DNA of 64,000 nt from assembly GCF_963676685.1 (NCBI RefSeq), contig NC_092349.1:63438924-63502923 (forward strand), given 5' to 3'. Numbering within the stretch: position 1 is the stretch's first letter; each line of letters starts with the position of its first letter. This DNA comes from Mytilus edulis. Its lineage: Eukaryota. Of this stretch, positions 1-46,783 are shown piece after piece. Below the pieces are notes generated by a model. It searched no databases, had not been told where the DNA came from, and worked only from the letters and a program-made list of their open reading frames with translations. A program made the position numbers and the translations under genes.

Positions 1-577
1 AAAAAACTTCATTAGCAACATTTTATATTGGCAAATTTCCAATGAAGTTATTTACATAAAGTTATAGGCAAATAAAAATAGAAAATGACATCATAGTCAT
101 GTCTGGCAAATGTCCAACATACATTATCTAAAAACATTTTAGATAAGATAAGGAAAAAAAGCTTCATCAGCAACATTTTATATTGGCAAATTTCCAATGA
201 AGTTATTTACATAAAGTTATTGGCAAATTTCCAACATATATTATCAACTACTACTCTATACAAAGAAAGATAACTCCAATTGAAAATTAATTGCTATTAC
301 ACAATATTGTGCAATTAGATATTTCTTGCTATTGTGCAATACTGTGCAATTGAAAATTTCTTGCTATTGCACAATACTTGATATGGAATCCTGATTTGGA
401 CCAACTTGAAAACTGGACCCATAATCAAAAATCAAAGTACATGTTTAGATAAAGCATATCAAATAAGCCAAAGAATTTAATTTTTGTTAAAATCAAACTT
501 AGTTTAATTTTGGACCCCCATTTGGACCAACTTGAAAACTAGGCCAATAATTAACCAGATGCTCCGCAGGGCGTAGC

Positions 578-2305
578 TTTATACGACCGCAGAGGTTGAA
601 CCCTGAACGGTTGGGGCAAGTATGGACACAACATTCAAGCTGGATTCAGCTCTAAATTTGGATTGTGATTAAATAGTTGACACAGCATAGGTTTCTGACA
701 CAGAATGAATGTGTTCTAATGAACTTAAAATTTTTGTTTTCTCTTAGAGCAATTCACTATGCTGTTGAATATTAATCCTCTCAAAAAAATGTTTGAAGAA
801 ATTTTCTTTTTTATTTATGAAATTTCAAATGAGAAAAATTGAACCCAATTTTTTTAATCACATCCCCCTTTCCTTTATTCCAAAACTAATCTCAATTAAA
901 ATTTCTAATGGAGTTTGCAACAATAACTACTCATTTAAATACATCATAAAATATTAAGATGTAAAAAAACTGCTTGTTATCACTGAATGGTAAAGATTAT
1001 TTTAATTTATCAGTTGGTAGTAAAAAGTGAATATACATTGTATATTGTATATAACAAAGATTTAAGTTGATTCTGGACAAAGAAAGATAACTCCAATTAA
1101 AAAAAATCTTGCTATTGCACAATATTTTGCAATTAGATATTTCTTGCTTACTATTCTGGACAAAGAAAGATAACTCTAATTAAAAAAAAAATTTGCTATT
1201 TCACAATATTGTGCAATTAAATATTTCTTGCCATTGCGCAATACTGTGCAATTGAAAAGACTTGCTATTGCACAATACTTAATATAATAATTTTAGATCC
1301 TGATTTGGACCAACTTGAAAAGTGGGCCCATAATAAAAAATCTAAGAACATTTTTGGATTCAGCATATCAAAGAACCCCAAGATTTCAATTTTTGTTAAA
1401 ATCAGACTAAGTTTAATTTTGGACCCTTTGGACTTGATGGTAGACCAATTTGAAAACAGCACCAAAAATGAAGAATCTACATACACAGTAAGATTTGGTA
1501 TATCAAAGAACCCCATTTATTCAATTTTTGATGAAATCAAACAAAGTTTAATTTTGGACCCCGATTTGGACCAACTTGAAAACTGGGCCAATAATCAAGA
1601 ATCTAAGTACATTTTTAGATTCAGCATATCAAAGAACCTAACTGATTCATTTTTTGTCAAAATCAAACTAAGTTTAATTTTGGACCCTTTGGACCTTAAT
1701 GTAGACCAATTTGAAAACGGGACCAAAAGTTAAGAATCTACATACACAGTCATGACAGTTAGATTCGGCATATCAAAGAACCCCAATTATTCAATTTTGA
1801 TGAAATCAAACAAAGTTTAATTTTGGACCCTTTGGGCCCCTTATTCTGTTGGGACCAAAACTCCCAAAATCAATACAAACCTTCCTTTTATGGTCATAAA
1901 CCTTGTGTTTAAATTTCATAGATTTCTATTTACTTAAACTAAAGTTATTGTGCGAAAACCATGAATAATGCTTATTTGGGCCCTTTTTTGGCCCCTAATT
2001 CCTAAACTGTTGAAACCAAAACTCCCAAAATCAATCCCAACCGTTCTTTTGTGGTCATAAACCTTGTGTCAAAATTTCATAGATTTCTATTAACTTAAAC
2101 TAAAGTTATAGTGCGAAAACAAAGAAAATGCTTATTTGGGCCCTTTTTGGCCCCTAATTCCTAAAATGTTGGGACCAAAACTCCCAAAATCAATACCAAC
2201 CTTCCTTTTGTGGTCATAAACCTTGTGTTAAAATTTCATAGATTTCCATTCACTTTTACTAAAGTTAGAGTGCGAAAAGTTTTTCAAATTTTGCGGTCGT
2301 ATAAA
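578..2305. mobile_element. Composite non-autonomous repeat element bounded by inverted 13-mers TTTATACGACCGC (578-590) / GCGGTCGTATAAA (2293-2305); ~170-bp head (553-720) plus internal satellite arrays
   Basis: The head cagatgctccgcagggcgtagctttatacgaccgcagaggttgaaccctgaac...gtttctgacacagaatgaatgtg recurs at 4312-4480 (~90% identity). The GCGGTCGTATAAA motif recurs at 2677-2689 and 5226-5238. Confidence 0.5.
1297..1830. repeat. Tandem array of ~130-bp unit (two alternating variants forming a ~260-bp higher-order repeat: ...gatttggaccaacttgaaaactgggcc.ataatcaa.aatctaagtacatttttagattcagcatatcaaagaacc...gtttaattttggaccc)
   Basis: Direct reading shows the periodicity. Further arrays of the same unit are at 378-545, 2304-2530, 2686-2913 and 4530-5190. 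The 142-aa ORF 1305-1733 is an artefact of the repeat. Confidence 0.85.
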
Positions 2306-3210
2306 AATCTAAGTACATTTTTAAATTCAGCATATCAAAGAACCCCAAGGATTCAATTTTTGTTAAAATCAAACTAAGTTTAATTTTGGACCCTTTGGAC
2401 CTTAATGTAGACCAATTTGAAAACGGGACCAAAAATTAAGAATCTACATACATAGTTAGATTCGGCATATCAAAGAACCCCAATTATTCAATTTTTGATG
2501 AAATCACACAAAGTTCAATTTTGGACCCTTTGGGCCCCTTATTCCTAAACTGTTGGAACCAAAACTCCCAAAATCAAACCCAACCTTCCTTTTGTGGTCA
2601 TAAACCTTGTGTTAAAATTTCATAGATTTCCATTCACTTTTACTAAAGTTAGAGTGCGAAAAGTTTTTCAAATTTTGCGGTCGTATAAAAATCTAAGTAC
2701 ATTTTTAAATTCAGCATATCAAAGAACCCCAAGGATTCAATTTTTGTTAAAATCAAACTAAGTTTAATTTTGGACCCTTTGGACCTTAATGTAGACCAAT
2801 TTGAAAACGGGACCAAAAATTAAGAATCTACATACATAGTTAGATTCGGCATATCAAAGAACCCCAATTATTCAATTTTTGATGAAATCACACAAAGTTC
2901 AATTTTGGACCCTTTGGGCCCCTTATTCCTAAACTGTTGGAACCAAAACTCCCAAAATCAAACCCAACCTTCCTTTTATGGTCATAAACCTTGTGTTTAA
3001 ATTTCATAGATTTCTATTTACTTATACTAAAGTTATGGTGCCAAAAATAATGCTTATTTGGGCCCCTTTTTGGCCCCTAATTCATAAACTGTTGTGACCT
3101 CAACTCCAAAAATCAATCCCAAGATTTTGGGAGTTTTGGTCCCAACATTTTAGGAATTTGGGGCCATATTCATTGATTTCTATTCACTTTTACTAAAGTT
3201 AGAGTGCGAA
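1831..3210. repeat. Interleaved arrays of a second ~150-bp unit (gggccc.ttttggcccctaattcctaaactgttg..accaaaactcccaaaatcaa.cc.aacc.tcctttt.tggtcataaaccttgtgt.aaatttcatagatttc.att.actt.aactaaagtta.agtgcgaaaa) alternating with the 130-bp unit; junctions contain ttttgcggtcgtataaaa
   Basis: Copies lie at 1831-2283 (x3), 2531-2665 and 2914-3210. An internal hairpin actccaaaaatcaatcccaagattttgggagtt is at ~3100-3135. Confidence 0.8.
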
Positions 3211-3224
3211 AACTAAAAGTATTC

Positions 3225-3258
3225 GGACGACGACGACGCAGGACGACGACGACGACGC
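3225..3258. repeat. (GACGAC)n microsatellite
   Basis: Sequence ggacgacgacgacgcaggacgacgacgacgacgcc. Confidence 0.9.
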
Positions 3259-3445
3259 CAACGTGATAGCAGTATACGACCAAAAAATTAAAATTTTTGC
3301 GGTCGTATAAAAAGCATAGGCCATTTTCTGTGTTAACTTAAAATAATTTTGTTGAACAGTTTTGATATAGATACAGACATCCAATCATAAAACAAAAAGA
3401 AAACACGTGATATAAATACTTAATAGTGTTCACAGTTCAACTTAC

Positions 3446-3571
3446 AGCATCTTTATCAATGAATGATTCTGTTGCTCGTAGAATAACACCTTCATCTTCT
3501 CCCAGTACATAGACATTCTGGATTCCTCTCTCAAATCGTTCTCCGGGTAACAAAAAGAAGGAACACTCACC
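3446..3571 (-). CDS. MVP: Major vault protein, coding exon 6; gene continues 3' beyond window start
   Basis: Translation [42 protein letters not shown] (cf. human [33 protein letters not shown]). The acceptor is ttttatag. The donor GTAAGT is the revcomp of 3440-3445. No further MVP exon was recognised in 1-3445, which is occupied by repeat arrays. Confidence 0.8.
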
Positions 3572-4173
3572 CTATAAAAATACAATTATATAAAATGAGA
3601 ATAATTATATACTCGGGGAATAAGAAAGATGCCTTCAATGAAAACGTTAAAGTTAAGTTAAAGATCAGCTTTCAGCTGTTGAGTTGTATTGACATTGAGA
3701 GAAAAAAGAATGTTTTCTGTAAAATACACAATGTAAAGAATTCTGATCCGAACGCCGACTTATTAATTGACATTTCACCGTTTCAGAATCTAATGCACCC
3801 TGAGTAATATTTTCCAAAGTGTACGCCAGAAACGTCGTGATTGGTTAAAAATGTCATTAACAATGGAAATTCAACCAATGACGTGACGCTATTTTCATTT
3901 TGGGTACGAACAATGAAATTACCCATGATTCTTTAGATTTTGAAACGGCCAATTACTAAGTACTCTTTTAGAGATGGTGCAATAGGAAATACACCGTACA
4001 TATGACATAATAACAGGGCGTTTTCGTCACTGTTCAAAATACTTTATTCACATAAGCTTGTTGCATGCCAATTTATTAATATAAACTTGGTATATACTAT
4101 GCAACAGCATACATTGATGAAACTTAGTTATACAGAATATTATCTATGCTAATTCATCTAACATTGTATTTAC

Positions 4174-4284
4174 CTTAACTAATTTCTTTCTACCCAGCTG
4201 AAGTCTGCCATGTTCATCGGAAGGGTCAAGAATGATACAATATTGTCTTGAGGTAAGTGTGGTGATGTTGATGACTCCAACAAC
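4174..4284 (-). CDS. MVP: Major vault protein, coding exon 5
   Basis: Translation [37 protein letters not shown] (cf. human [37 protein letters not shown]). The acceptor is tttgatttcag and the donor GTAAAT. Intron 4 (4285-5614) is filled by a composite repeat element. Confidence 0.85.
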
Positions 4285-4336
4285 CTGAAATCAAACCGTA
4301 AGTATATTACAAACCAGATGCTCCGCAGGCCGCAGC

Positions 4337-5238
4337 TTTATACGACCGCAGAGTTTGAACCCTGAACATTTGGGCAAGTATGGACACAACATTCAAACTT
4401 GATACAGCTCTGAATTTGGATTGTGATTAAAAAGTTAACACAACACAGGTTTCTGACACATAATGAATGTGGTTTAAGAACTTAAACTTAAAAACTTTAA
4501 ATTTTAAATTGTACATTACCTATTATGGTCCAATATCCAAATTCTAAATACATGGTTAGATTAAGCATATCAAAGAACCCCAAGAATTCAATTTTTGATG
4601 AAATCAAATAAAGTTCAATTTTGGACCCTTTACACCTCAATGTGGACCAATTTGATAACCGGACCAAAACATCAAAAATCTAAACATGGTTAGATTAAGC
4701 ATATATCAAAGAACCCTAATATAGACAATTTTTGTTGAAATCAAACAAAGTTTAATTTTGGACCCCAATTTGGACCAACCTGAAAACTGGGCCTATAATC
4801 AAAAATCTAAATACATGTTTAGATTCAGCATATCAAAGAACCCCAAGGATTCAAAATCTAAATACATGTTTAGATTCAGCATATCAAAGAACCCCAAGGA
4901 TTCATTTTTTGTTGATATCAAACAAAGTTTAATTTTGGACCCCGATTTGGTCCAACTTGAAAAATTGGGCCAATAGTAAAAAATATACGTAAATGTTTAG
5001 ATTCAGCACATCAAAGAACCCCAAGGATTCAATTTTTGTTAAAATCAAACTTAGTTTAATTTTGGACCCTTTGGACCTTAATGTAGACCAATTTGAAAAC
5101 GGGACCAAAAATTAATAATCTACATACACAGTTAGATTCGGCATATCAAAGAACCCCAATTATTAAATTTTTGAAGAAATCAAACAGCTTGATACCAATA
5201 TACGACCAAAACATTTTCAATTTTAGCGGTCGTATAAA
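4337..5238. mobile_element. Second copy of the composite element (head 4312-4480, ~130-bp array 4530-5190, terminal hairpin 5209-5237) inside MVP intron 4
   Basis: TTTATACGACCGC lies at 4337-4349. The terminal hairpin is tatacgacc(20 nt)ggtcgtata with GCGGTCGTATAAA at 5226-5238. A solo hairpin of the same type sits at 3273-3309. Confidence 0.5.
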
Positions 5239-5614
5239 AATTGGAAACTGTTTTTCAACCACCGCAACATTAACATTTCTTTTCAGTAGGCGTTAAGTTT
5301 CAAAAACAATGGCAATTACTTAAGTATTGGTCCATTGCTGCATTGTTTGAACAGAACTTAAGCGAATCTGAGCTGTACTCAAATTGAATATTATCATAAC
5401 TTGTAAAATGAAACTCGGAAGAGTGCATGAGTATGAACTGCACTGAGTCAGAATCATATTTTGTTGATTAAAAGTGAAATAGAAAGGAAGTAAGGAAAGG
5501 ATTTGAAGAAATCAAAGTGAAGATGTGTTCCCCAGACACGTTTTTCTTTTATTCATAAAAGGAAAACAATAAGTGTTTATTCCATATTTCATTCCCTGTT
5601 ACATCAGTACATAC

Positions 5615-5740
5615 CTCTTCATACACATTAGGTATGTGTGTTTCTGTGTCTGTCATTTTGATCAACCATTCCTCTCCATTCTTTCTTGTTACACCAAAGT
5701 CGTCTTTAAATGTTCTCAATGATATCATATGGAGGGCTTT
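5615..5740 (-). CDS. MVP: Major vault protein, coding exon 4
   Basis: Translation KALHMISLRTFKDDFGVTRKNGEEWLIKMTDTETHIPNVYEE (cf. human [42 protein letters not shown]). The acceptor tcttgcag is the revcomp of 5741-5748. The donor GTATGT is the revcomp of 5609-5614. Confidence 0.85.
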
Positions 5741-6130
5741 CTGCAAGATAACAAATTAGATTGATTGTTGGTTGCTTAACGTCCAGTGGCAAATGAACAA
5801 ATAAGATGATAATGTCTTGTCTAATTACGTTGTACATTACTAGTATTTGAAAGGTGAATAATATGACCAGATAACTCTAAGAAATATTTTTAAAATTGTT
5901 TGTTCCTATTATGCTACGTTTTCTTTCTCTATTTTATATAACGTTTTTATGGTGTACTAGTTTATCATCTATTTATTCCTCCGCAAATTTAAATAAACAT
6001 GCAAAATATTTTTTAAATACGAAAATTCAAACGATCGCATCAACAAAAGAAACACGAAACATGCACCAATAGATCAACGATCAATTTATCTTCTTTTTAT
6101 CGTCATTCCACTGATTGGAACTATATTTAC

Positions 6131-18818: not shown

Positions 18819-19957
18819 CGTTTACTATGGCAAGCCGTTCTCGTCAAAACTATGAATAAACCATTTTTCGAAAAATTTACACACTGAGAATTAAATACTT
18901 CAAAACACACACTGAGAATTAAAAAATACACACTGAGAATTAAAAATTACACACTGAGAATTAAAAATTACACACAGAAAATTAAAATTACACACTAAGA
19001 TTATACAAAAATGAAAAACACACACTGATAATTGAAAATTACACACTGAGATTTCAAAAAGACACACTGAGAATAATATAAATAAACTGAAAACACACAC
19101 TGAGAATTTGAAATTACACACTGAGATTTGTGCGCACTTTTTATGCGCACATATCTAATTAGCATACTTAATCTGAATCTATTACAAGCTTAAAACAACT
19201 AGGGGACAGCACTCAAAAAATGTTTATAAAAAAACTTTAGAAATACAAGAACAAGAAAAATACCCACTTATTCTTAATACAAAATATAACCAAATGGTGA
19301 AAAACTTTATTAAAATTATAAGAAAACATTGGAACAATCTGTAAAAAAACAAAGAATGCAAAATTTTTATTCAAGTGTCTCAATAGCATATAAACGTAAC
19401 AAAAATATAAAAGATTAACTTGCGAAATCAGGGTAACAGTTGGAAGACTTTTCAAAAGGGACCCATGCTTAAACGGTTTAAAGTAGAAAAAAATCCCGAT
19501 ACACTGGTAGTAATGATCTGAATTATAGGCAACAAACTTATGAATATGAGCGATGTTAAGTCTTGAAATTTATTACGACTGTTGGTTGAAGGAATCGCAT
19601 TTCATTATAATGACAAGAGTTCTTGAGATCAAGATATTAATCTGTTGAATTATTCATTTCATGAATATTCATTAGTAATTTGCATATTAATCTCAGTGTG
19701 TATTTTTGAAATCTCAGTGTGTAATTAAGAATTCTCAGTGTGTGTTTTTCAATTTATTTCATCTCAGTGTGTCTTTTTAAAATCTCAGTGTGCAATTTTG
19801 AATTATCAGTGTGTATTTTTTATTCTTTTAAATCTCAGTGTGTAATTTCGATTTATCAGTGTGTTATTTTAGGTTTTAAAATCTCAGTGTGTATTTTTTT
19901 TTCGAAAAAAGGGTTTAAGCATAGTTTTGACGAGAACGGCTTGCCATAGTTTACTAT
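18819..19957. mobile_element. Foldback-like element: ~310-bp inverted arms (18819-19129 / 19688-19957) made of ~20-bp sub-repeats (acacactgagaattaaaaatt)n, ~560-bp unique middle
   Basis: The left arm gtttactatggcaagccgttctcgtcaaaactatg...(cacactgagaatt..)x11 is the revcomp of the right arm (aatctcagtgtgt..)x9...catagttttgacgagaacggcttgccatagtttactat. Confidence 0.7.
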
Positions 19958-21751: not shown

Positions 21752-22078
21752 TCCATATATGGAAAGCGACCACAATACCCTATGACCATATATGGAAATT
21801 ATGACCAAATTTGGTAAGAACCTTATTTTCACTCAAAATAAACATACATGACCATATATGGAAATCGACAAAACAACCTATGACCATATATGGAAATCAT
21901 GACCAAATTTGGTAAAAACCTTATTTCCGTTGAAAAATCAAAATAAAATACATGACCATATATGGAAACCGACCAGATACCCTATGATCATATATGGAAA
22001 TGATGACCAAATTTGGAAAAAAACTTTTATTTTCACTCCAAAATCAAAATAAACATATATGACCATATATGGACAGCA
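21752..22078. repeat. ~110-bp tandem repeat x3 carrying perfect CArG boxes (CCATATATGG), left arm; followed by two CACGTG-containing 98-bp repeats (22079-22200)
   Basis: The unit catgaccatatatggaaatcgac..ccctatgaccatatatggaaatcatgaccaaatttggtaa.aaccttatttt.c is repeated. CCATATATGG occurs ~7 times. aggtcacgtgatcgtatcgaggaac occurs twice. Confidence 0.8.
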
Positions 22079-22325: not shown

Positions 22326-22766
22326 TCATTCGTACAATGCAAGCAGTTTGTCGTCGTTACTCATCGAGTCTCTAGACGAAAAATCTTTCACAATGTCTTC
22401 CATGCTAATGTTTCTATATCTCATCTTCACGAAATGTACACAATAGAGTCCGCATGTATCGGATGATCCCTGTTGCACTTGAGTCGTACTGAATCTGTAT
22501 TGAGGTCCATTGGCGATGAGCACGTTCCTGAAGCGACGAAGGTAATACTCCGGAGAACGTCCGAACGAATCGAAAAATTCGACGGGTCCCTCTCGCGGGA
22601 AGTGGAACGCCACCCAGTGAATGCGCTTGTCGTCGCAGTCGTCCGTGTTGACGACGAAACTGCGGGGCCTGTTCGAGACTTCATCCGGCAGTTCATCGAC
22701 ACAACACACGGTCGCCGGCAGGTCTTCGAGATAACACTCCAGTTCGTATCCGAAGGTTCCCTCCAC
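22326..22766 (-). CDS. Adenain-like (peptidase C5, adenovirus/Polinton-type) cysteine protease domain ORF, left palindrome arm
   Basis: The 146-aa ORF MEGTFGYELECYLEDLPATVCCVDELPDEVSNRPRSFVVNTDDCDDKRIHWVAFHFPREGPVEFFDSFGRSPEYYLRRFRNVLIANGPQYRFSTTQVQQGSSDTCGLYCVHFVKM... matches adenovirus protease motifs recalled from memory. These are the catalytic His (GGVHWMAFAW ~ RIHWVAFHF), the Asp/Glu region (LFEPFG ~ FFDSFG) and the Gln...Cys region (QSVQGPNSAACGLFCCMFL ~ TQVQQGSSDTCGLYCVHFV). The ORF is GC-rich and intronless, in an AT-rich setting. Confidence 0.75.
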   Translation of the reverse strand: MEGTFGYELECYLEDLPATVCCVDELPDEVSNRPRSFVVNTDDCDDKRIHWVAFHFPREGPVEFFDSFGRSPEYYLRRFRNVLIANGPQYRFSTTQVQQGSSDTCGLYCVHFVKMRYRNISMEDIVKDFSSRDSMSNDDKLLALYE

Positions 22767-23005
22767 GCCGTCGTCTTCCGTTCTGCATCGTTTGGCGGAT
22801 GGTTCTTCGCCACAGTCCCTATCTTGATGGATCTCAAGTCAATGACTTGTTCACGGAAGGATCGCATCATCGGAACCTGTCGGTGTTGGCTGTGAATCAG
22901 AACCTGTATTTCGGGAAGGATCCGACTCAGAGAAGAAACTGTCACTACCTGGTCCTCTTCGACAATCCAGTCGATCGCCAGCCCGTCGCCACGCTAGGTA
23001 GACAG

Positions 23006-23774
23006 ATGTATCCGAGTCAGAGACACCTCTTGATGCAAACGTTCCGAGAGGCCACGAGGAGACCCTTCGGATACCTTGTGGTGGATCTGAAGGCCGCTAC
23101 ACCCGAACACTTGAGATTACGTAGCGACGTCTTGGGCGGAGGCGAGGACGACGCCGAAGCCGAGGACGAAGACGTCGATTCCACCGGAAGCGAATCGAAC
23201 ACCATGGAATTCGAGGAAGAAGACGTCGGAAGCGAATCGGACCTGATGGCTTGCCGCGCATGCGGACTGGTATTTGCGCACGTCCGGGGACTTGAGATCC
23301 ATCAAGAGAGGGACTGTGGCGAAGAACCATCCGCCAAACGATGCAGAACGGAAGACGACGGCCTGGAGGGAACCTTCGGATACGAACTGGAGTGTTGTGT
23401 CGATGAACTGCCGGATGAAGTCTCGAACAGGCCCCCGCAGTTTCGTCGTCAACACGGACGACTGCGACGGCAAGGGCATTCACTGGGTGGCGTTCCACTT
23501 CCCGCGAGAGGGACCCGTCGAATTTTTCGATTCGTTCGGACGTTCTCCGGAGTATTACCTTCGTCGCTTCAGGAACGTGCTCATCGCCAATGGACCTCAA
23601 TACAGATTCAGTACGACTCAAGTACAACCGGGATCATCCGATACATGCGGACTCTATTGTGTACATTTTGTGAAGATGAGATATAGAAACATTAGCATGG
23701 AAGACATTGTGAAAGATTTTTCGTCTAGAGACTCGATGAGTAACGACGACAAACTGCTTGCATTGTACGAATGA
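23006..23774 (+). pseudogene. Second copy of the adenain-like protease gene (right arm), with acidic N-terminus and C2HC finger; frame broken by +1 C in a C-run (23432-23436)
   Basis: Frame A from ATG 23006 reads MYPSQ...GGGEDDAEAEDEDVDSTGSESNTMEFEEEDVGSESDLMACRACGLVFAHVRGLEIHQERDCGEEPSAKRCRTEDDGLEGTFGYELECCVDELPDEVSNRP. The protease domain RSFVVNTDDCDGKGIHWVAFHF...CGLYCVHFVKM...LALYE then continues in the +1 frame to the stop at 23774. The left copy has gcccc where the right has gccccc. Confidence 0.6.
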
Positions 23775-24034: not shown

Positions 24035-24360
24035 CCATATATGGTCATATATGTTTATTTTGATTTTGGAGTGAAAATTAATGTTTTTTTTCCAAATTTG
24101 GTCATCATTTCCATATATGATCATAGGGTATCTGGTCGGTTTCCATATATGGTTATGTATTTTATTTTGATTTTTCAACGGAAATAAGGTTTTTACCAAA
24201 TTTGGTCATGATTTCCATATATGGTCATAGGTTGTTTTGTCGATTTCCATATATGGTCATGTATGTTTATTTTGAGTGAAAATAAGGTTCTTAACAAATT
24301 TGGTCATAATTTCCATATATGGTCATAGGGTATTGTGGTCGTTTTCCATATATGGAATTC
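24035..24360. repeat. Mirror copy of the CArG-box tandem repeats (right arm)
   Basis: This is the reverse complement of 21752-22078 (tttccatatatggtcat... units). Confidence 0.8.
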
Positions 24361-32711: not shown

Positions 32712-33308
32712 GCGATTGTGGAGGGAAGTCAGATATAATATTTGCTATTCCTGGGAACGCAGACATTCCGGGGGAAGAATTCTTTCCGTTTGAACGATTT
32801 TTAACCATGCTTACAGATTATTTTCAAATCGACAGAGATAATGTAAATGTTGGTCTGATATTATACGGTAGAGAAGCTGTTGCAATCAGTTGGCCGCAAC
32901 CAATGAAGGACCAAACACAAACGAATACCAGAATAAGCCTTCTTGCGCAAAGAGAATTATACAATGGAAAACTAAAAGGAGCAGCAGATGTCAAAGCGGC
33001 ACTTTACTTAATGCGACAAATGTTCAGAAATCCATCCGGTTATCCTCTGGTACTACCTAGACCCGACACCAAACAAATTGGAGTAATGTTCACCTATGGC
33101 TCAGTTCAGGCAGATATGATCCCCGATGTCATTGCAGCTACAAAACAGTTTAAGGAAGCTGGAATCGACATGTATTCAGTTGGACGGATGCCAAATGGTG
33201 AATGGTTTCCTGAGATAGCCTCTCATAAATGTAATGTTTTCTCAATGGAAAGTTACTCGGAAGGTCTAAGAGGTCTTCTCCCTTATATCGGGAGCAGTAT
33301 ATGCACAG
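32712..33308 (+). CDS. Secreted VWA + chitin-binding protein, exon 2 (von Willebrand factor type A domain)
   Basis: The acceptor is ctatttttag. The exon joins exon 1 in phase 1 (g+gc = G). Translation GDCGGKSDIIFAIPGNADIPGEEFFPFERFLTMLTDYFQIDRDNVNVGLILYGREAVAISW...KQIGVMFTYGSVQADMIPDVIAATKQFKEAGIDMYSVGRMPNGEW has VWA-domain spacing (DIIF..G / VGLILYG / TYGS..D / GIDMYSVG). The donor is cag|GTTAGT at 33309. Confidence 0.75.
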
Positions 33309-33704
33309 GTTAGTTTATTTTTGCATGTATTTTAAATCGATTTTTTATATTAAAAAAAAAATAGACACACATCCTTGTTTTTGTTTTTTGCTATGAATCG
33401 GTACTGTTAATTTTGTTTCGTTGATCATCATCGGAACTTCAATCTGATTTATACATTTTGTGTTTCTTGTTTTCTTTTGTATCCAAATACTTCTTGTAGA
33501 ATTGTATATTTTATAATTGTTTCAAAAAGAAAATTCAGAATAAACAAACAAACTGATATTTGTTCAAAATTTTATATTTTATTTATATACCATGTGTCAT
33601 ATACAAATAGAAAATATGATAAAAAGTAAATCAATAGTCTACAAGACACTACAGACACCCAAAGACATAGCAAGACGAACTCCACCAAAAACTGAGACTG
33701 ACAG

Positions 33705-35272: not shown

Positions 35273-36956
35273 GTAAGTAAAGCATGGTACATATTAACCG
35301 TCAGATATATACCTGGATATGAAAGTGCCTCTCTTAAATTACATTGAAAAAGAAAAAGATAAAAAAAAATATTTTGAAAACGAGTAAAGATATTTCACAT
35401 AATTAAAATCATTTGTCTAGGTACAAGTTACATATATATAAACTATATATATAAAGACAATCGACCATATTTATTGCACAAACACAAACACATTTACATT
35501 AAATGTTTATGGATATACAAATACATGTCTTTTATAAACTTGAATATGTACGCTTTTGTAACGCTTGTATGAAAGATCGTTCAGGGCTAACCTCAACATG
35601 ACCGGAAGGAAACCATCCCATATCTAGTGTTTCCATGTTTTAAATTTATTGTCAATATTTATGGCTTAATATCCGGGTTGTTTGCGCATCTTTTTTTTAC
35701 GTTATATAAATGAAGAGTTACGTTATGGTACATAAACGGTTGATCCCAATATTGGTAAAGCGTGCTTCATAGAGAGTTTCTTTGGTCAAACAATGGTCCC
35801 TGCAATTTATGTTTGTTTCGCATTTTGTATGTCATGTGAAGCGTTTTAAATAAATTATTTCTTTTCTTGTAAAAGAGGTTAGTTAAACATACTTGAATGA
35901 TCACTTTGATGGTCGAACATCCAAAAATCTGACCGTAAGTTTTTTAGAAGCGATGTCGTCTGCAAACTACGATGTTACTAGGTTTGTATAAATTAATCTA
36001 ATATACTTACAAGTTTTAGCTTTCTAAAAAGCTATGGACTGCTTCGCTACACCCTAATTCAAGGTAATATGTGTGCATGTGGTTGTTGAATTAGTATTGG
36101 AAATGTGGTATTTATAGATATTGATTGATATAAAATGGATGTACTTTAAAAGTGTGCGTTACATACCCATGTTTAAAAAAAAAATCTTTTTTAAAATAAA
36201 ATCAATTATAAATAGACACGACTTTTGATGTGTGCCTTTTTGGAGGTGTGCCTTAAGTTAGATTGTCAGAAAAATACAGATAATACATTTTTGTAAACAT
36301 TGTACTGATAGGAACATTGTTTAGCAAAGCAAATAGTGCAAATTGCAGAGTAACAAAGAAAATAAACACGTATTTAAAATAATTGATATTTCAATATTGA
36401 ATTTGTCTGTAAAATGTATGCATAATAAAATGAACATGAATTAATAACAGTTGATTGGAACTGAAATACACATAGTTAATTTTCCGTCATTTGATGTCTT
36501 ATCCTGGGCAAGAAAAGTCTGTATTTCCTTATCTCATTTAAGCCAATAGCTGTTGGTATATCTCAGCCTCATCATAACGCAACCAATCAGAATCTATACG
36601 TGATAAGTAATTTATTCAAGATGGCCTGTATTTTGACTAAACACTTTGAATTCGTCCTGTCAATGATGTTGGACTGATCTTCGTACATGTGTAGCGCGTG
36701 CAACACACACTTTTCGTTAATATGTCATTTAATACTAAGAAACGTAGAAAAAAAAATCATATATCTGTAATTAATCCTATTTTGCTGGACATTGAGAAAA
36801 CGGAAACAGCGGCTTTTCATTTATTTATGTAAACTAAAGGAGAACAAAAGCAACGTTTTTCTTTATTTATACAGAAAATAAATGAATTATAGTATTTCAA
36901 TGGCATACATCTTTACCATAATATGATATATGACAATTCTTTTATTTTATTTTCAG

Positions 36957-37324
36957 AATTTTGGAAGCCAAGTCCAAACCCGCCAGTTATTTGTCCGTCC
37001 TTGAATGCAATATTTCAGGATCCTTATAATTGTGCTTATCTATTCAAATGCGATTTGAATATTCCTGCGCGTGAAAGATGCCCAACAGGGATGCTCTTTG
37101 ATAACTCAATTAAAGCTTGCAATCACAAAGATGCAGTTCCATGTTACTCAATGATCACGTGTCCAAGTCACATGGGTTTGTTTCCGCATCCAGAAACATG
37201 CAAAAAATTCTTGAATTGTTTCGACAATATTCCATATGTGCAAAAGTGTCCACGTGACCTGTATTTTAACAATGAAACCAAAATCTGCGAAGAAGAGTAT
37301 AAAGTTAATTGCATATTTCACTGA
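36957..37324 (+). CDS. Secreted VWA + chitin-binding protein, terminal exon (two peritrophin-A / ChtBD2 domains), stop TGA 37322-37324
   Basis: The acceptor is ttttattttcag. Translation KFWKPSPNPPVICPSLNAIFQDPYNCAYLFKCDLNIPARERCPTGMLFDNSIKACNHKDAVPCYSMITCPSHMGLFPHPETCKKFLNCFDNIPYVQKCPRDLYFNNETKICEEEYKVNCIFH gives two 6-Cys modules with CBM14/peritrophin-A spacing. AATAAA lies at ~37547. Confidence 0.8.
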
Positions 37325-45051: not shown

Positions 45052-46783
45052 GTAATCGTACGGAAGCGTATTAGGGACATAGAAAAAATAAAATTGGCAT
45101 TGAACTTTTTTTTCAAAGTCAAAATTTTGACTTTTCAAATCTCGAAATTTTGACTTTAACTTGAAATTTTGACTTTTAAAATCCCGAAATTTTGACTTTA
45201 AATTGAAATTTTGACTTTCTAAAGTCTTAAAATTTCTACTTTTTGAAAAGTCGAAATTTTGACTTTTTTGAAACTCGAAATTTCGAATTACAAAAAGTCG
45301 AAATTTCCACTTTAAACTCGAAATTTCGAGTTTTTTGAAACTCGAAATTTTGACTTATTTAAAACTCGAAATTTTGACTTATTCAAAACTCAAAATTTCG
45401 ATTAATTTAAAACTCGAAATTTCAACTTATTTTAAACTCAAAATTTCGACTTTTTTAAAACTCGAAATTTCGACTTATTTTAAACCCGAAATTTCAACTT
45501 ATTTTAAACTCAAAATTTCGACTTTTTGTAAACTCAAAATTTCGAATGTTGAAATCGCGAAATTTTGAATTTTTTTAAATAATTTTAAAACTTTGATGTT
45601 AGTATTCAAACACAGTTATTACAATTTTAGAAGGAGTAGACATGGACGCAAATTATTAAAGCGTCTTCCACACATTTTGTCAATTTATATTCAAAAATTT
45701 GTTTTGTTCTTAAATTAAGATATGGATCAGCATTTAATATTGAAGAAATCATTCGTAAAAAGAACATGCATGTTGACAGAATCCCCCCCCCCCCCCATAT
45801 TTCATTTTTTAGTTTCCACGACACTGTCATAGGATCGTCAGATCTGAGGACATTTAGCATCACAGTTTCAAAGGCTTGTTTGGTATCCCAATAGCAAGTC
45901 ACTGACTTTGCCTTGTTTAAACAAAATGCCATTCATATTCAGGACGACCAATGAGTTGCTCAGTTTTCTAGTTTTGGAAGTTTGCATTCTTATAACACAA
46001 CTATTAACCCTTGTCTTTATATATTAGACTGTTGAATAAAAGTATATCGTAATATAGGTGTGTCGGAATAGCGGGGGTGTCTTGATACACATATCTGAAG
46101 TTCAGACTTGAAGTATGTATTCGAACGTGAAACATATTTTATTTATTCTTCGCCAAAACAAGATTTTCTATCTAAAATAACCTCTCTAACATGGTTTAGT
46201 TTATTAAAATATGCTTATGAAGTTTGTGATGTATATGACTCTCCGCCTTGCTGATATAAATGACTGTGAATGTGGTAATCGCAAACGTATAAATACTGAG
46301 GAAAAGTCGAAATTTTAAGTTTAAAGAAAGTTGAAATTTTGAGTTTAAAAGAAGTCGAAATTTCGAGTTTAAAAGAAGTCGAAATTTCGAGTTTAAAAGA
46401 AGTCGAAATTTCGAGTTTAAAAAAAGTCGAAATTTCGAGTTTAAAAAAAGTCGAAATTTCGAGTTTAAAAAAAGTAGAAATTTCGAGTTTAAAGTCGAAA
46501 TATTGAGTTTAAAAGAAGTTGAAATTTCGAGTTAAGAAAAAGTCGAAATTTCGAGTTTGGAGAAGGCGAAATTTCGAGTTTAGAAAAAGTCGAAATTTCG
46601 AGTTTTAAAAGAGTTGAAATTTCAAGATTTTAGAAAGTCAAAATTTTAAGATAAGAAAAGTTAAAATTTCGAGTTAAAGTCGAAATTTTGAGATTTGAAA
46701 TGCCAAAATTTTGACTTTGAAAAAAAATGTCACTACCAATTTTATTTTTTTTCTATGTCCCTAATACGCTTCCGTATAATCGT
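45052..46783. mobile_element. Foldback-like element (1.73 kb): arms 45052-45590 / 46296-46783 built of ~25-bp sub-repeats whose core TCGAAATTTCGA is itself palindromic; ~700-bp unique middle
   Basis: The outer ends gtaatcgtacggaagcgtattagggacatagaaaaaataaaattgg and ccaattttattttttttctatgtccctaatacgcttccgtataatcgtaac are inverted. Inside are (aactcgaaatttcgacttatttta)n and (agtcgaaatttcgagtttaaaagaa)n. The 77-aa ORF 45335-45568 is a repeat artefact. Confidence 0.7.

What the first reader, a model, noticed from the sequence alone, without database searches (positions are those of the whole stretch)
3273..5238. Composite satellite-bearing elements bounded by inverted TTTATACGACCGC / GCGGTCGTATAAA motifs, plus solo 9-bp-stem hairpins
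Two larger units (578-2305 and 4337-5238) share a ~170-bp head and end in arrays of 130/150-bp repeats. The 13-mer occurs in inverted orientation at their two ends and at internal array junctions. Two minimal versions consist only of a hairpin tatacgacc-(20 nt)-ggtcgtata (3273-3309, 5209-5237). This looks like a non-autonomous element family whose termini can fold into a hairpin and whose interior amplifies tandemly, reminiscent of Helitron-like or foldback dynamics, but the superfamily is unclear. The copies occupy MVP introns.
Basis: seen in the sequence. Interest (0 to 1): 0.5.

Follow-up and report, generated by a model that had tools for sequence, protein, structure and literature searches.

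The report
Helentron-type non-autonomous transposons carrying satellites
The repeats are three copies, one inserted inside another, of a well-known kind of non-coding rolling-circle transposon (HINE / DINE-1 / "pearl" type) that carries short satellite arrays; it is a clean but ordinary example.

Summary
The 13-mer TTTATACGACCGC occurs 6 times (0.05 expected), always at module boundaries. The shared ~180-bp "head", the 135- and 159-bp arrays and the two 9-bp-stem hairpins are all present.

Read on the minus strand, the anatomy is that of a HINE (Helentron-associated interspersed element: DINE-1, pearl, DTC84, Cg_HINE):
- 5'-TTTTT, then a 13-bp subterminal inverted repeat (subTIR)
- a (GTC)n microsatellite
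- tandem arrays in a fixed order and orientation
- the 3' subTIR, a weak palindrome, and ...CATCTGGTT-3'

There are three elements:
- Z is 4312-5240.
- X is 553-2307 and is inserted in the 135-bp array of Y. Its flanks rejoin into one monomer.
- Y is 2308-3313 plus 249-552.

The internal 13-mers are X's 5' end, duplicated by a recent 384-bp unequal crossover. The "solo hairpins" are the 5' ends of Y and Z, not minimal elements.

Nine further elements, most of them incomplete, on eight contigs from other assemblies share the module order. Their intact termini match the window's, with unrelated flanks.

I found no autonomous partner and could not compare with Repbase or Dfam. Verdict: a new or possibly already catalogued member of a known kind; low interest.

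The parts
4312..5240 (-). Element Z, a complete HINE of 929 bp lying in an MVP intron in the same orientation as MVP
   Evidence: 5' end N|TTTTTATACGACCGC at 5240 and 3' end CATCTGGTT|N at 4312. Both boundaries coincide with those of copies elsewhere.
5226..5240 (-). Z 5' terminus: T5 run plus the 13-bp 5' subTIR
5199..5207 (-).
   Evidence: DNA fold -9.8 kcal/mol, z = -3.7
4526..5185 (-). Z central array of about five 126-135-bp monomers, including a 51-bp internal duplication at 4802-4904
4312..4489 (-).
   Evidence: 89% identical to 553-732; alignment of 3' ends
553..2307 (-). Element X, a complete 1755-bp HINE nested inside the 135-bp array of element Y
   Evidence: The flanks 478-552 and 2308-2400 rejoin into one uninterrupted 135-bp monomer, apart from about 5 nt of an A-run.
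553..732 (-). X right flank: terminal ATCTGGTT 553-560, palindrome 561-577, 3' subTIR 578-590
733..1290 (-). X spacer (733-1069, unique in the window) and a 35/84-bp repeat module (1070-1290). Y has the same repeat module at 249-384.
1288..1835 (-). X array of about four 126/135-bp monomers
1816..2292 (-). X array of three 159-bp monomers
2293..2307 (-). X 5' terminus (T5 plus subTIR). The IR and microsatellite are deleted, as in an independent copy, L126a.
2308..3313 (-). Element Y, 5' part: left flank, two 159-bp monomers, 135-bp monomers. Its continuation is 249-552. Its 3' end is not in the window.
   Evidence: Same module order as X and as the copies in other contigs.
249..552 (-). Element Y, continuation on the far side of the X insertion: 135-bp monomers (390-552) and the 35-bp repeat module (249-384)
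   Evidence: 87.7% identical to 1149-1285 of X; flank rejoining
3213..3313 (-).
   Evidence: Fold -11.1 kcal/mol, z = -3.8. The left-flank alignment shows the same order in 6 other copies.
2134..3046 (-). 384-bp higher-order unit, 2.4 copies: part of a 159-bp monomer, then X's 5' terminus, then 1.7 monomers of Y's 135-bp array. It contains the duplicate 13-mer at 2677-2689.
   Evidence: TRF gives 96% matches. Units 1 and 2 are 97.7% identical. All 9 differences lie in 2138-2195 and the remaining 322 nt are identical.
3440..3585 (-). MVP exon (context)
   Evidence: PF01505 below its cut-off (25.3 bits vs 27); aligned to the MVP locus L001
4171..4284 (-). MVP exon (context). Z ends about 27 nt upstream of its putative AG acceptor (4286-4285).
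   Evidence: Aligned to L001. No Pfam hit. The splice site is read from the sequence and is inferred.
5613..5746 (-). MVP exon (context)
   Evidence: PF01505, E = 1e-11

Best explanation
These are copies of one family of HINEs: non-autonomous, non-coding derivatives of Helentrons. Helentrons are the endonuclease-encoding branch of the eukaryotic rolling-circle (Helitron-like) transposons. In bivalves such elements were first called pearl, MgE or DTC84 'MITE-like' elements, and in Drosophila DINE-1.

All three elements lie on the minus strand, each with this layout:
- 5'-TTTTT, then the subTIR TATACGACCGC
- a 17-18-nt spacer
- an IR, GGTCGTATA
- TTGSTATCACGTTG, then a (GTC)n microsatellite
- 159-bp repeats, then 126/135-bp repeats
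- sometimes a spacer
- an RF of about 180 bp that ends GCGGTCGTATAAA-GCTGCGCCCTGCGGAGC-ATCTGGTT-3'

Inferred mechanism, from the published biology of the class. A Helentron Rep/helicase supplied in trans recognises the 5' end and the 3' subTIR-plus-palindrome end. It moves the element through a single-stranded intermediate and inserts it into a T-run without a target-site duplication.

History read from the sequence. X inserted into a T-run of a 135-bp monomer of Y. An unequal crossover between a 159-bp monomer of X and one of Y then duplicated a 384-bp segment that contains X's 5' end. That is why the 13-mer appears 'inside' the array. Array copy number varies between copies, which I attribute to ordinary unequal exchange or slippage.
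For: Shown here:
- The 13-mer is hugely over-represented and lies only at module boundaries.
- Every intact 5' end examined is N|TTTTTATACGACCGC: the 3 independent ones in the window, plus L058, L126a, L126b and L132. L127 and L125 are decayed versions. The flanks are unrelated right up to the T-run.
- Five 3' ends stop exactly at CATCTGGTT and two (L125, L131) at a variant, GAGCATTTT. Again the flanks are unrelated.
- The order LF, 159-bp repeats, 135-bp repeats, RF and the repeat orientation are the same in every element that carries at least two modules (X, Y, Z; L125, L126a, L127, L128 x2, L129, L131, L132). Two other pieces are too short to tell: in L126b only the left flank was matched, and the first copy in L128 is cut by the contig end and shows only its 3' flank.
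- The 5' subTIR/IR hairpin is significant (z about -3.8). The IR plus (GTC)n microsatellite recur in other copies.
- X's flanks rebuild one 135-bp monomer, so X is an insertion, at an A/T homopolymer, with no duplication beyond that run.
- No tRNA or Rfam signal was found and the elements have no coding capacity.

From the literature:
- The defining HINE/DINE-1 anatomy is 12-15-bp subTIRs about 2-4 nt from the 5' end, an IR 3-22 bp from the 5' subTIR, a microsatellite, central repeats, a 3' stem-loop 8-35 bp from the 3' end, a T-rich target and no target-site modification (PMC4067079).
- Cg_HINE in oyster has the same anatomy, including GTCY-type microsatellites and elements with two consecutive arrays (PMC7492417).
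- Pearl, DTC84 and MgE share the modular structure, with the inverted motif subterminal at one end and terminal at the other and 'AA' at both ends (PMC3879986). That is exactly what the plus strand shows here.
Against: - No autonomous Helentron with these termini was found. None is in the window, and the source genome could not be searched.
- The 3' palindrome is weak: a 7-bp stem with a central mismatch, z = -1.3 and -1.5, and no compensatory changes among 7 copies.
- The 3' subTIR lies 25 nt from the end, closer than the 38-60 nt reported for the mite families.
- My data cannot separate 'insertion between two Ts, no TSD' from 'a TT duplication', because both element ends and the one reconstructed target are T-runs.
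- The extra copies come almost entirely from one environmental assembly (ERZ6864376) of unknown organism. They are a sample, not a census.
Confidence: 0.88

Rival explanations
1. It is a cut-and-paste MITE, as pearl and DTC84 were originally classified. On this view the short inverted repeats are transposase binding sites and the flanking TT/AA is a 2-bp target-site duplication.
For: The inverted 13-mers and the TT (AA on the plus strand) at both ends fit the older description in PMC3879986. My one reconstructed target lies in a T-run, so it cannot exclude a TT duplication.
Against: - The ends are strongly asymmetric. The repeat is 2 nt from one end and 25 nt from the other, behind a conserved tail.
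- X and L126a lack the IR, yet sit at different loci.
- The same architecture has been tied to Helentron partners that are >95% identical at the ends, with empty sites showing no target modification (PMC4067079; PMC7492417).
Confidence: 0.06
2. It is a canonical non-autonomous Helitron (Helitron1 type), not a Helentron derivative.
For: It is a rolling-circle-like, non-coding element with a hairpin near one end. Repbase files the oyster equivalents as Helitron-N.
Against: By general knowledge of the family, canonical Helitrons start 5'-TC, end CTRR-3', lack inverted repeats and insert between A and T. These elements start TTTTTATA, end CTGGTT, carry 13-bp subTIRs and sit in T-runs.
Confidence: 0.04
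3. It is not mobile. On this view it is a local satellite whose monomer happens to contain the motif, and local duplication explains all copies in the window.
For: All window copies lie within 5.2 kb, and part of the structure (the 384-bp unit) is indeed a local duplication.
Against: - The 13-mer is absent from ordinary monomers.
- The left and right flanks recur, with unrelated surroundings, on eight other contigs.
- X interrupts a monomer cleanly.
Confidence: 0.01

Closest known systems
Cg_HINE elements of Crassostrea gigas (Vojvoda Zeljko et al. 2020, PMC7492417; filed as Helitron-N*_CGi in Repbase)
   Same: The layout matches: a left flank with an 11-12-bp subTIR, a complementary IR and a GTC-based microsatellite; central satellite-like arrays of fixed orientation, sometimes two consecutive arrays; a right flank of about 60 bp with the 3' subTIR followed by a palindrome; a T-rich target; no TSD; frequent insertion into other repeats.
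   Different: No sequence comparison was possible, because the paper's Table S2 is illegible in the held copy. Here the subTIR-to-IR spacing is 17-18 nt (1-12 in Cg_HINE), the microsatellite is a trinucleotide, the monomers are 126/135 and 159 bp, and the conserved right flank is about 180 bp.
DINE-1 / INE-1 of Drosophila and the mite and mosquito HINEs (Thomas et al. 2014, PMC4067079)
   Same: 13-bp subTIRs, an IR 3-22 bp from the 5' subTIR, a microsatellite, central repeats, a 3' stem-loop, runs of T at the boundaries, and no coding capacity.
   Different: There is no sequence similarity expected or tested. The 3' subTIR is 25 nt from the end (38-60 nt in the mite families). The 3' palindrome here is weak. 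For DINE-1 the autonomous partner is known; here it is not.
pearl (C. virginica), DTC84 (Donax trunculus) and MgE (Mytilus galloprovincialis HSP70 introns)
   Same: On the plus strand the module order is L flank, core repeats, microsatellite, R flank. The inverted motif is subterminal in L and terminal in R, with AA at both ends. MgE lacks the microsatellite, as Z and X do, and also sits in introns (PMC3879986).
   Different: Those core repeats are about 160 bp in a single array of up to 5-6 copies. Here a 159-bp array is followed by a 126/135-bp array.

Membership tests
HINE (Helentron-associated interspersed element) | A subterminal inverted repeat of about 11-15 bp, within a few nt of the 5' terminus, with its inverse copy near the 3' end | tested here: met
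   The 13/13-bp TTTATACGACCGC lies 2 nt from the 5' end and, inverted, 25 nt from the 3' end in both X and Z. It is conserved in copies elsewhere.
HINE (Helentron-associated interspersed element) | A short IR complementary to the 5' subTIR, a few nt downstream (DINE-1 / Cg_HINE type) | tested here: met
   GGTCGTATA lies 17-18 nt after the subTIR in Y and Z, with z about -3.8. It is also present in L126b, L132 and L125 and decayed in L127. It is deleted in X and L126a and degenerate in L058.
HINE (Helentron-associated interspersed element) | A microsatellite in the left flank | tested here: met
   (GTC)n is present in Y, L058, L126b, L127, L132 and L125. It is absent in Z, X and L126a.
HINE (Helentron-associated interspersed element) | Central tandem repeats in a fixed orientation relative to the flanks | tested here: met
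   The order is 159-bp then 135-bp arrays, always co-oriented, in all 11 elements that carry at least two modules.
HINE (Helentron-associated interspersed element) | A palindrome or stem-loop between the 3' subTIR and the 3' terminus | tested here: inconclusive
   GCTnCGC-cct-GCGnAGC ends 8 nt from the terminus and is present in most copies. It has a central mismatch, z is only -1.3 and -1.5, and there are no compensatory changes.
HINE (Helentron-associated interspersed element) | Insertion into a T-rich (TT) target without target-site duplication | tested here: inconclusive
   The nested insertion of X lies in a 5-nt A/T run of a monomer, with no duplication beyond the run. No shared flank bases are seen among the copies. 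A TT duplication cannot be excluded from a homopolymer target.
HINE (Helentron-associated interspersed element) | An autonomous Helentron (Rep-helicase-endonuclease) in the same genome that shares the subTIRs and the last ~60 bp | not testable with these tools
   There is no such ORF in the window, and the source genome is not searchable.
Canonical Helitron, non-autonomous | 5'-TC and CTRR-3' ends, no inverted repeats, insertion between A and T | tested here: not met
   The ends are TTTTTATACG... and ...CATCTGGTT, with 13-bp subTIRs.
Cut-and-paste MITE | Symmetrical terminal inverted repeats flanked by a fixed-length TSD | tested here: not met
   The repeat is terminal at one end and 25 nt internal at the other. 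The only possible TSD is the TT of the T-runs.
Foldback element | Long inverted arms, usually built of repeats, that make up most of the element | tested here: not met
   All arrays are direct. Apart from the 13-mers, the only inverted match of 25 nt or more is a 44-nt local inversion at 3123-3166.
SINE | A tRNA-, 5S- or 7SL-derived pol III head | tested here: not met
   ARAGORN found 0 genes and Rfam gave 0 matches at E <= 0.1 over 1-6000.

The most novel reading that the evidence does not exclude
The X/Y composite now carries three co-oriented, intact 5' ends (3313, 2691, 2307) upstream of a single 3' end (553). If a Helentron Rep can start at any of them, this locus would launch elements of 1.75, 2.1 and 2.8 kb. 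The 384-bp unit would then be a young satellite in which every repeat contains a transposase recognition site. That would be a direct route by which rolling-circle transposons seed and spread new composite satellites. A second point concerns the IR and microsatellite. X in the window and L126a in another assembly sit at different loci, and both lack these two modules. This suggests the modules may be dispensable for mobility.
Probability: 0.1. Interest if true: 0.35.

Novelty: new member of a known kind. Interest (0 to 1): 0.15.

Why it matters
It mainly matters for annotation. These 5 kb should be masked as HINE/Helentron-derived repeats in the minus orientation, not reported as a new element class or as solo hairpin elements.

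The locus is also a neat small illustration of three known points:
- HINEs insert into each other's arrays.
- Recombination between nested copies can create a higher-order repeat that contains a transposon end.
- Such elements sit in introns in the sense orientation. One ends about 27 nt from a putative splice acceptor.

None of this changes current understanding.

Tried and rejected
- Metagenome scan with the 14-mer TTTATACGACCGCA. Only L058 proved related, and it is a chimeric low-coverage contig.
- Viral-contig scan for the hairpin pattern and a GTDB genome scan for a 20-mer of the right flank: no hits in either.
- Orthologous empty site for Z. MVP-exon relatives were fetched, but they are only 73-85% identical in the exons and their introns do not align. 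They come from other species. In L001 the corresponding intron is 745 bp against 1323 bp here, which suggests Z is absent there but is not a clean empty site. An exact look-up of the window's own exon ORF found nothing.
- Taxon of the window.
- A literature string search for the subTIR found only unrelated primers. The Cg_HINE Table S2 is illegible in the held copy. The MgE paper is not in the library.
- tRNA and Rfam searches were negative.
- I considered rolling-circle read-through as the origin of the 384-bp unit and rejected it. The units are not head-to-tail whole elements. The 5' end abuts Y's 135-bp monomer, not a 3' end. The differences between units 1 and 2 are confined to one end, as expected of a crossover.

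Full report
**Observation**

The 13-mer TTTATACGACCGC occurs six times in the 64-kb window: twice on the plus strand (578, 4337) and four times on the minus strand (2293, 2677, 3299, 5226). Only 0.05 matches are expected by chance, and no shuffle reaches six.

The two plus-strand copies lie inside a shared segment, 553-732 vs 4312-4489, that is 89% identical over 180 bp. Between the motifs lie tandem arrays with periods of 126/135 bp and 159 bp, and a 384-bp higher-order unit.

The two hairpins fold significantly better than shuffled sequence (z = -3.8 and -3.7). The second is at 5199-5236, not 5209-5237. No further copy of any module exists beyond position 5240.

**Anatomy**

Read on the minus strand, every unit has the same layout:
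- 5'-TTTTT, then the subterminal inverted repeat (subTIR) TATACGACCGC
- a 17-18-nt A/T-rich spacer
- TTGSTATCACGTTG, then a (GTC)n microsatellite
- 159-bp repeats, then 126/135-bp repeats
- in some copies, a spacer
- a conserved right flank (RF) of about 180 bp that ends GCGGTCGTATAAA (3' subTIR), GCTGCGCCCTGCGGAGC (imperfect palindrome), ATCTGGTT-3'

The window holds three elements:
- Z is 4312-5240. It is complete and has no microsatellite.
- X is 553-2307. It is complete, but its IR and microsatellite are deleted.
- Y is 2308-3313 plus 249-552. It has a full left flank (LF). Its 3' end is not in the window.

The "solo hairpins" are the 5' ends of Y and Z.

**Nested insertion and the internal 13-mers**

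Joining 478-552 to 2308-2400 rebuilds one uninterrupted 135-bp monomer. The rebuilt monomer aligns along its whole length with the five other monomers compared. Only about 5 nt of an A-run are unaccounted for, at the point where X begins and ends with its own A/T runs.

X is thus an insertion into Y's array, at a homopolymer, without any duplication beyond that run. This works as a paralogous empty site, the approach used in the HINE literature.

The 384-bp unit (2134-3046, 2.4 copies) consists of part of a 159-bp monomer, X's 5' end, and 1.7 monomers of Y's 135-bp array. Units 1 and 2 differ at 9 positions, all within 2138-2195, and the remaining 322 nt are identical. This is the signature of a recent unequal crossover between a 159-bp monomer of X and one of Y. 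It explains the 13-mers "at internal array junctions" (2293 and 2677).

The alternative is a rolling-circle multimer. That would place a 5' end next to a 3' end, which is not what is seen.

**Copies elsewhere**

No DNA search of the source genome was possible. Instead I translated an ORF that runs through the 135-bp array and searched the protein collection. This gave 33 relatives, nearly all from ENA assemblies. I then fetched seven contigs of sample ERZ6864376. One more copy came from the otherwise wasted metagenome scan (L058).

These contigs contain nine further elements, most of them incomplete. Seven of them show the same module order and orientation. In L126b only the left flank was matched, and the first copy in L128 is cut by the contig end and shows only its 3' flank.

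At the 5' end, the intact copies (Y, Z, X, L058, L126a, L126b, L132) all read N|TTTTTATACGACCGC, with unrelated sequence up to the T-run. L127 and L125 are decayed versions. L126a has the same deletion of IR and microsatellite as X but sits at a different locus, so this short-LF form appears to have spread.

At the 3' end, five copies stop exactly at CATCTGGTT and two at a variant, GAGCATTTT. Again the flanks are unrelated.

**What it is**

The anatomy matches, feature by feature, the published definition of HINEs, the non-autonomous derivatives of Helentrons:
- 12-15-bp subTIRs a few nt from the 5' end
- an IR 3-22 bp from the 5' subTIR
- a microsatellite and central tandem repeats
- a 3' stem-loop 8-35 bp from the end
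- T-runs at the boundaries, a T-rich target and no target-site modification

These features are given in PMC4067079. The oyster Cg_HINE elements add GTC-type microsatellites, fixed repeat orientation, elements with two consecutive arrays, and frequent insertion into repeats (PMC7492417).

Read on the plus strand, the same sequence fits the older description of pearl, DTC84 and MgE "MITE-like" elements. That description has an L flank, core repeats, a microsatellite and an R flank, with the inverted motif subterminal in L and terminal in R and AA at both ends. MgE lacks the microsatellite and lies in introns (PMC3879986).

Other classifications fail:
- Canonical Helitron features (TC...CTRR, no inverted repeats) are not met.
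- There is no tRNA or Rfam signal, so a SINE reading has no support.
- All arrays are direct, so nothing is foldback-like.

**Weak points**

- The 3' palindrome is marginal (z = -1.3 and -1.5, a central mismatch, no covariation).
- A TT duplication cannot be told apart from insertion between Ts when the target is a homopolymer.
- No autonomous partner was found. There is none in the window.
- Repbase, Dfam and the MgE sequence could not be consulted, so I cannot say whether this exact family is already named.
- The organism could not be identified with the tools.

**Mechanism**

Shown here: sharp conserved ends, insertion at a T-run, a nested insertion, and array-length variation with a crossover-generated higher-order repeat.

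Inferred from the family's established biology: mobilisation in trans by a Helentron Rep/helicase(-endonuclease) through a single-stranded, rolling-circle-type intermediate. In this model the 5' subTIR region acts as the start signal, and the 3' subTIR plus palindrome acts as the stop signal.

**Context**

Vault-repeat exons of a major vault protein (MVP) gene lie on the minus strand. Z lies between the exons at 5613-5746 and 4171-4284, in the sense orientation. It ends about 27 nt before the putative acceptor, which I read from the sequence. X and Y lie downstream of the exon at 3440-3585. That this is an intron is inferred, because the next exon would lie beyond the start of the window.

**Verdict**

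This is a textbook HINE family with an instructive nested copy. It is either a new or an already catalogued member of a known kind, and of low interest.

Noticed in passing
window 21753-22073 and 24035-24355: Two arrays of a 104-bp tandem repeat (3.1 copies each) lie in inverted orientation. They flank an ORF-dense 1.5-kb segment (22326-23774, longest ORF 295 aa) with no Pfam match. It looks like a different, foldback-like or TIR-array transposon.
   Followed up: partly
window 45108-45579 vs 46302-46726; 18902-19130 vs 19685-19897: Two more pairs of short-period arrays (24 bp and 21 bp) face each other in inverted orientation. They may be further foldback-type structures.
   Followed up: no
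window 3123-3166: A 44-nt segment inside the last 159-bp monomer of element Y is inverted relative to the other monomers (98% complementary to 2148-2191). It lies about 60 nt from the microsatellite.
   Followed up: no
window 249-384 and 1070-1290: A 35/84-bp repeat module with a palindromic core, TTGCACAATATTGTGCAA, lies between the 135-bp array and the 3' flank in X and Y. It is absent from Z and from the copies in other contigs. It may be a captured or inserted sequence that marks a subfamily.
   Followed up: partly
window 1-248: A 155-bp direct repeat (1-73 vs 156-228, 96% identical) sits where Y's spacer and 3' flank would be expected. It is unrelated to X's spacer (733-1069).
   Followed up: no
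window 4285-4312: Element Z ends about 27 nt upstream of the putative AG acceptor of an MVP exon and lies in the same orientation as the gene. A possible effect on the branch point or polypyrimidine tract was not tested.
   Followed up: no
window 32807-33313 and 36923-37324: Plus-strand ORFs with a von Willebrand factor A domain (E = 2e-9) and a chitin-binding peritrophin-A domain (E = 4e-20). They are probably exons of neighbouring genes.
   Followed up: no
L058 1-130: A low-coverage marine metagenome contig joins a HINE 5' end and a 135-bp-like monomer to bacterial genes. It is probably an assembly chimera. The junction with the monomer is at a different monomer position than in the window, which suggests another nested insertion.
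   Followed up: partly
L125 about 1330 and L131 about 2350: Two copies end in GAGCATTTT instead of GAGCATCTGGTT. This may be a subfamily with a different 3' terminus.
   Followed up: no
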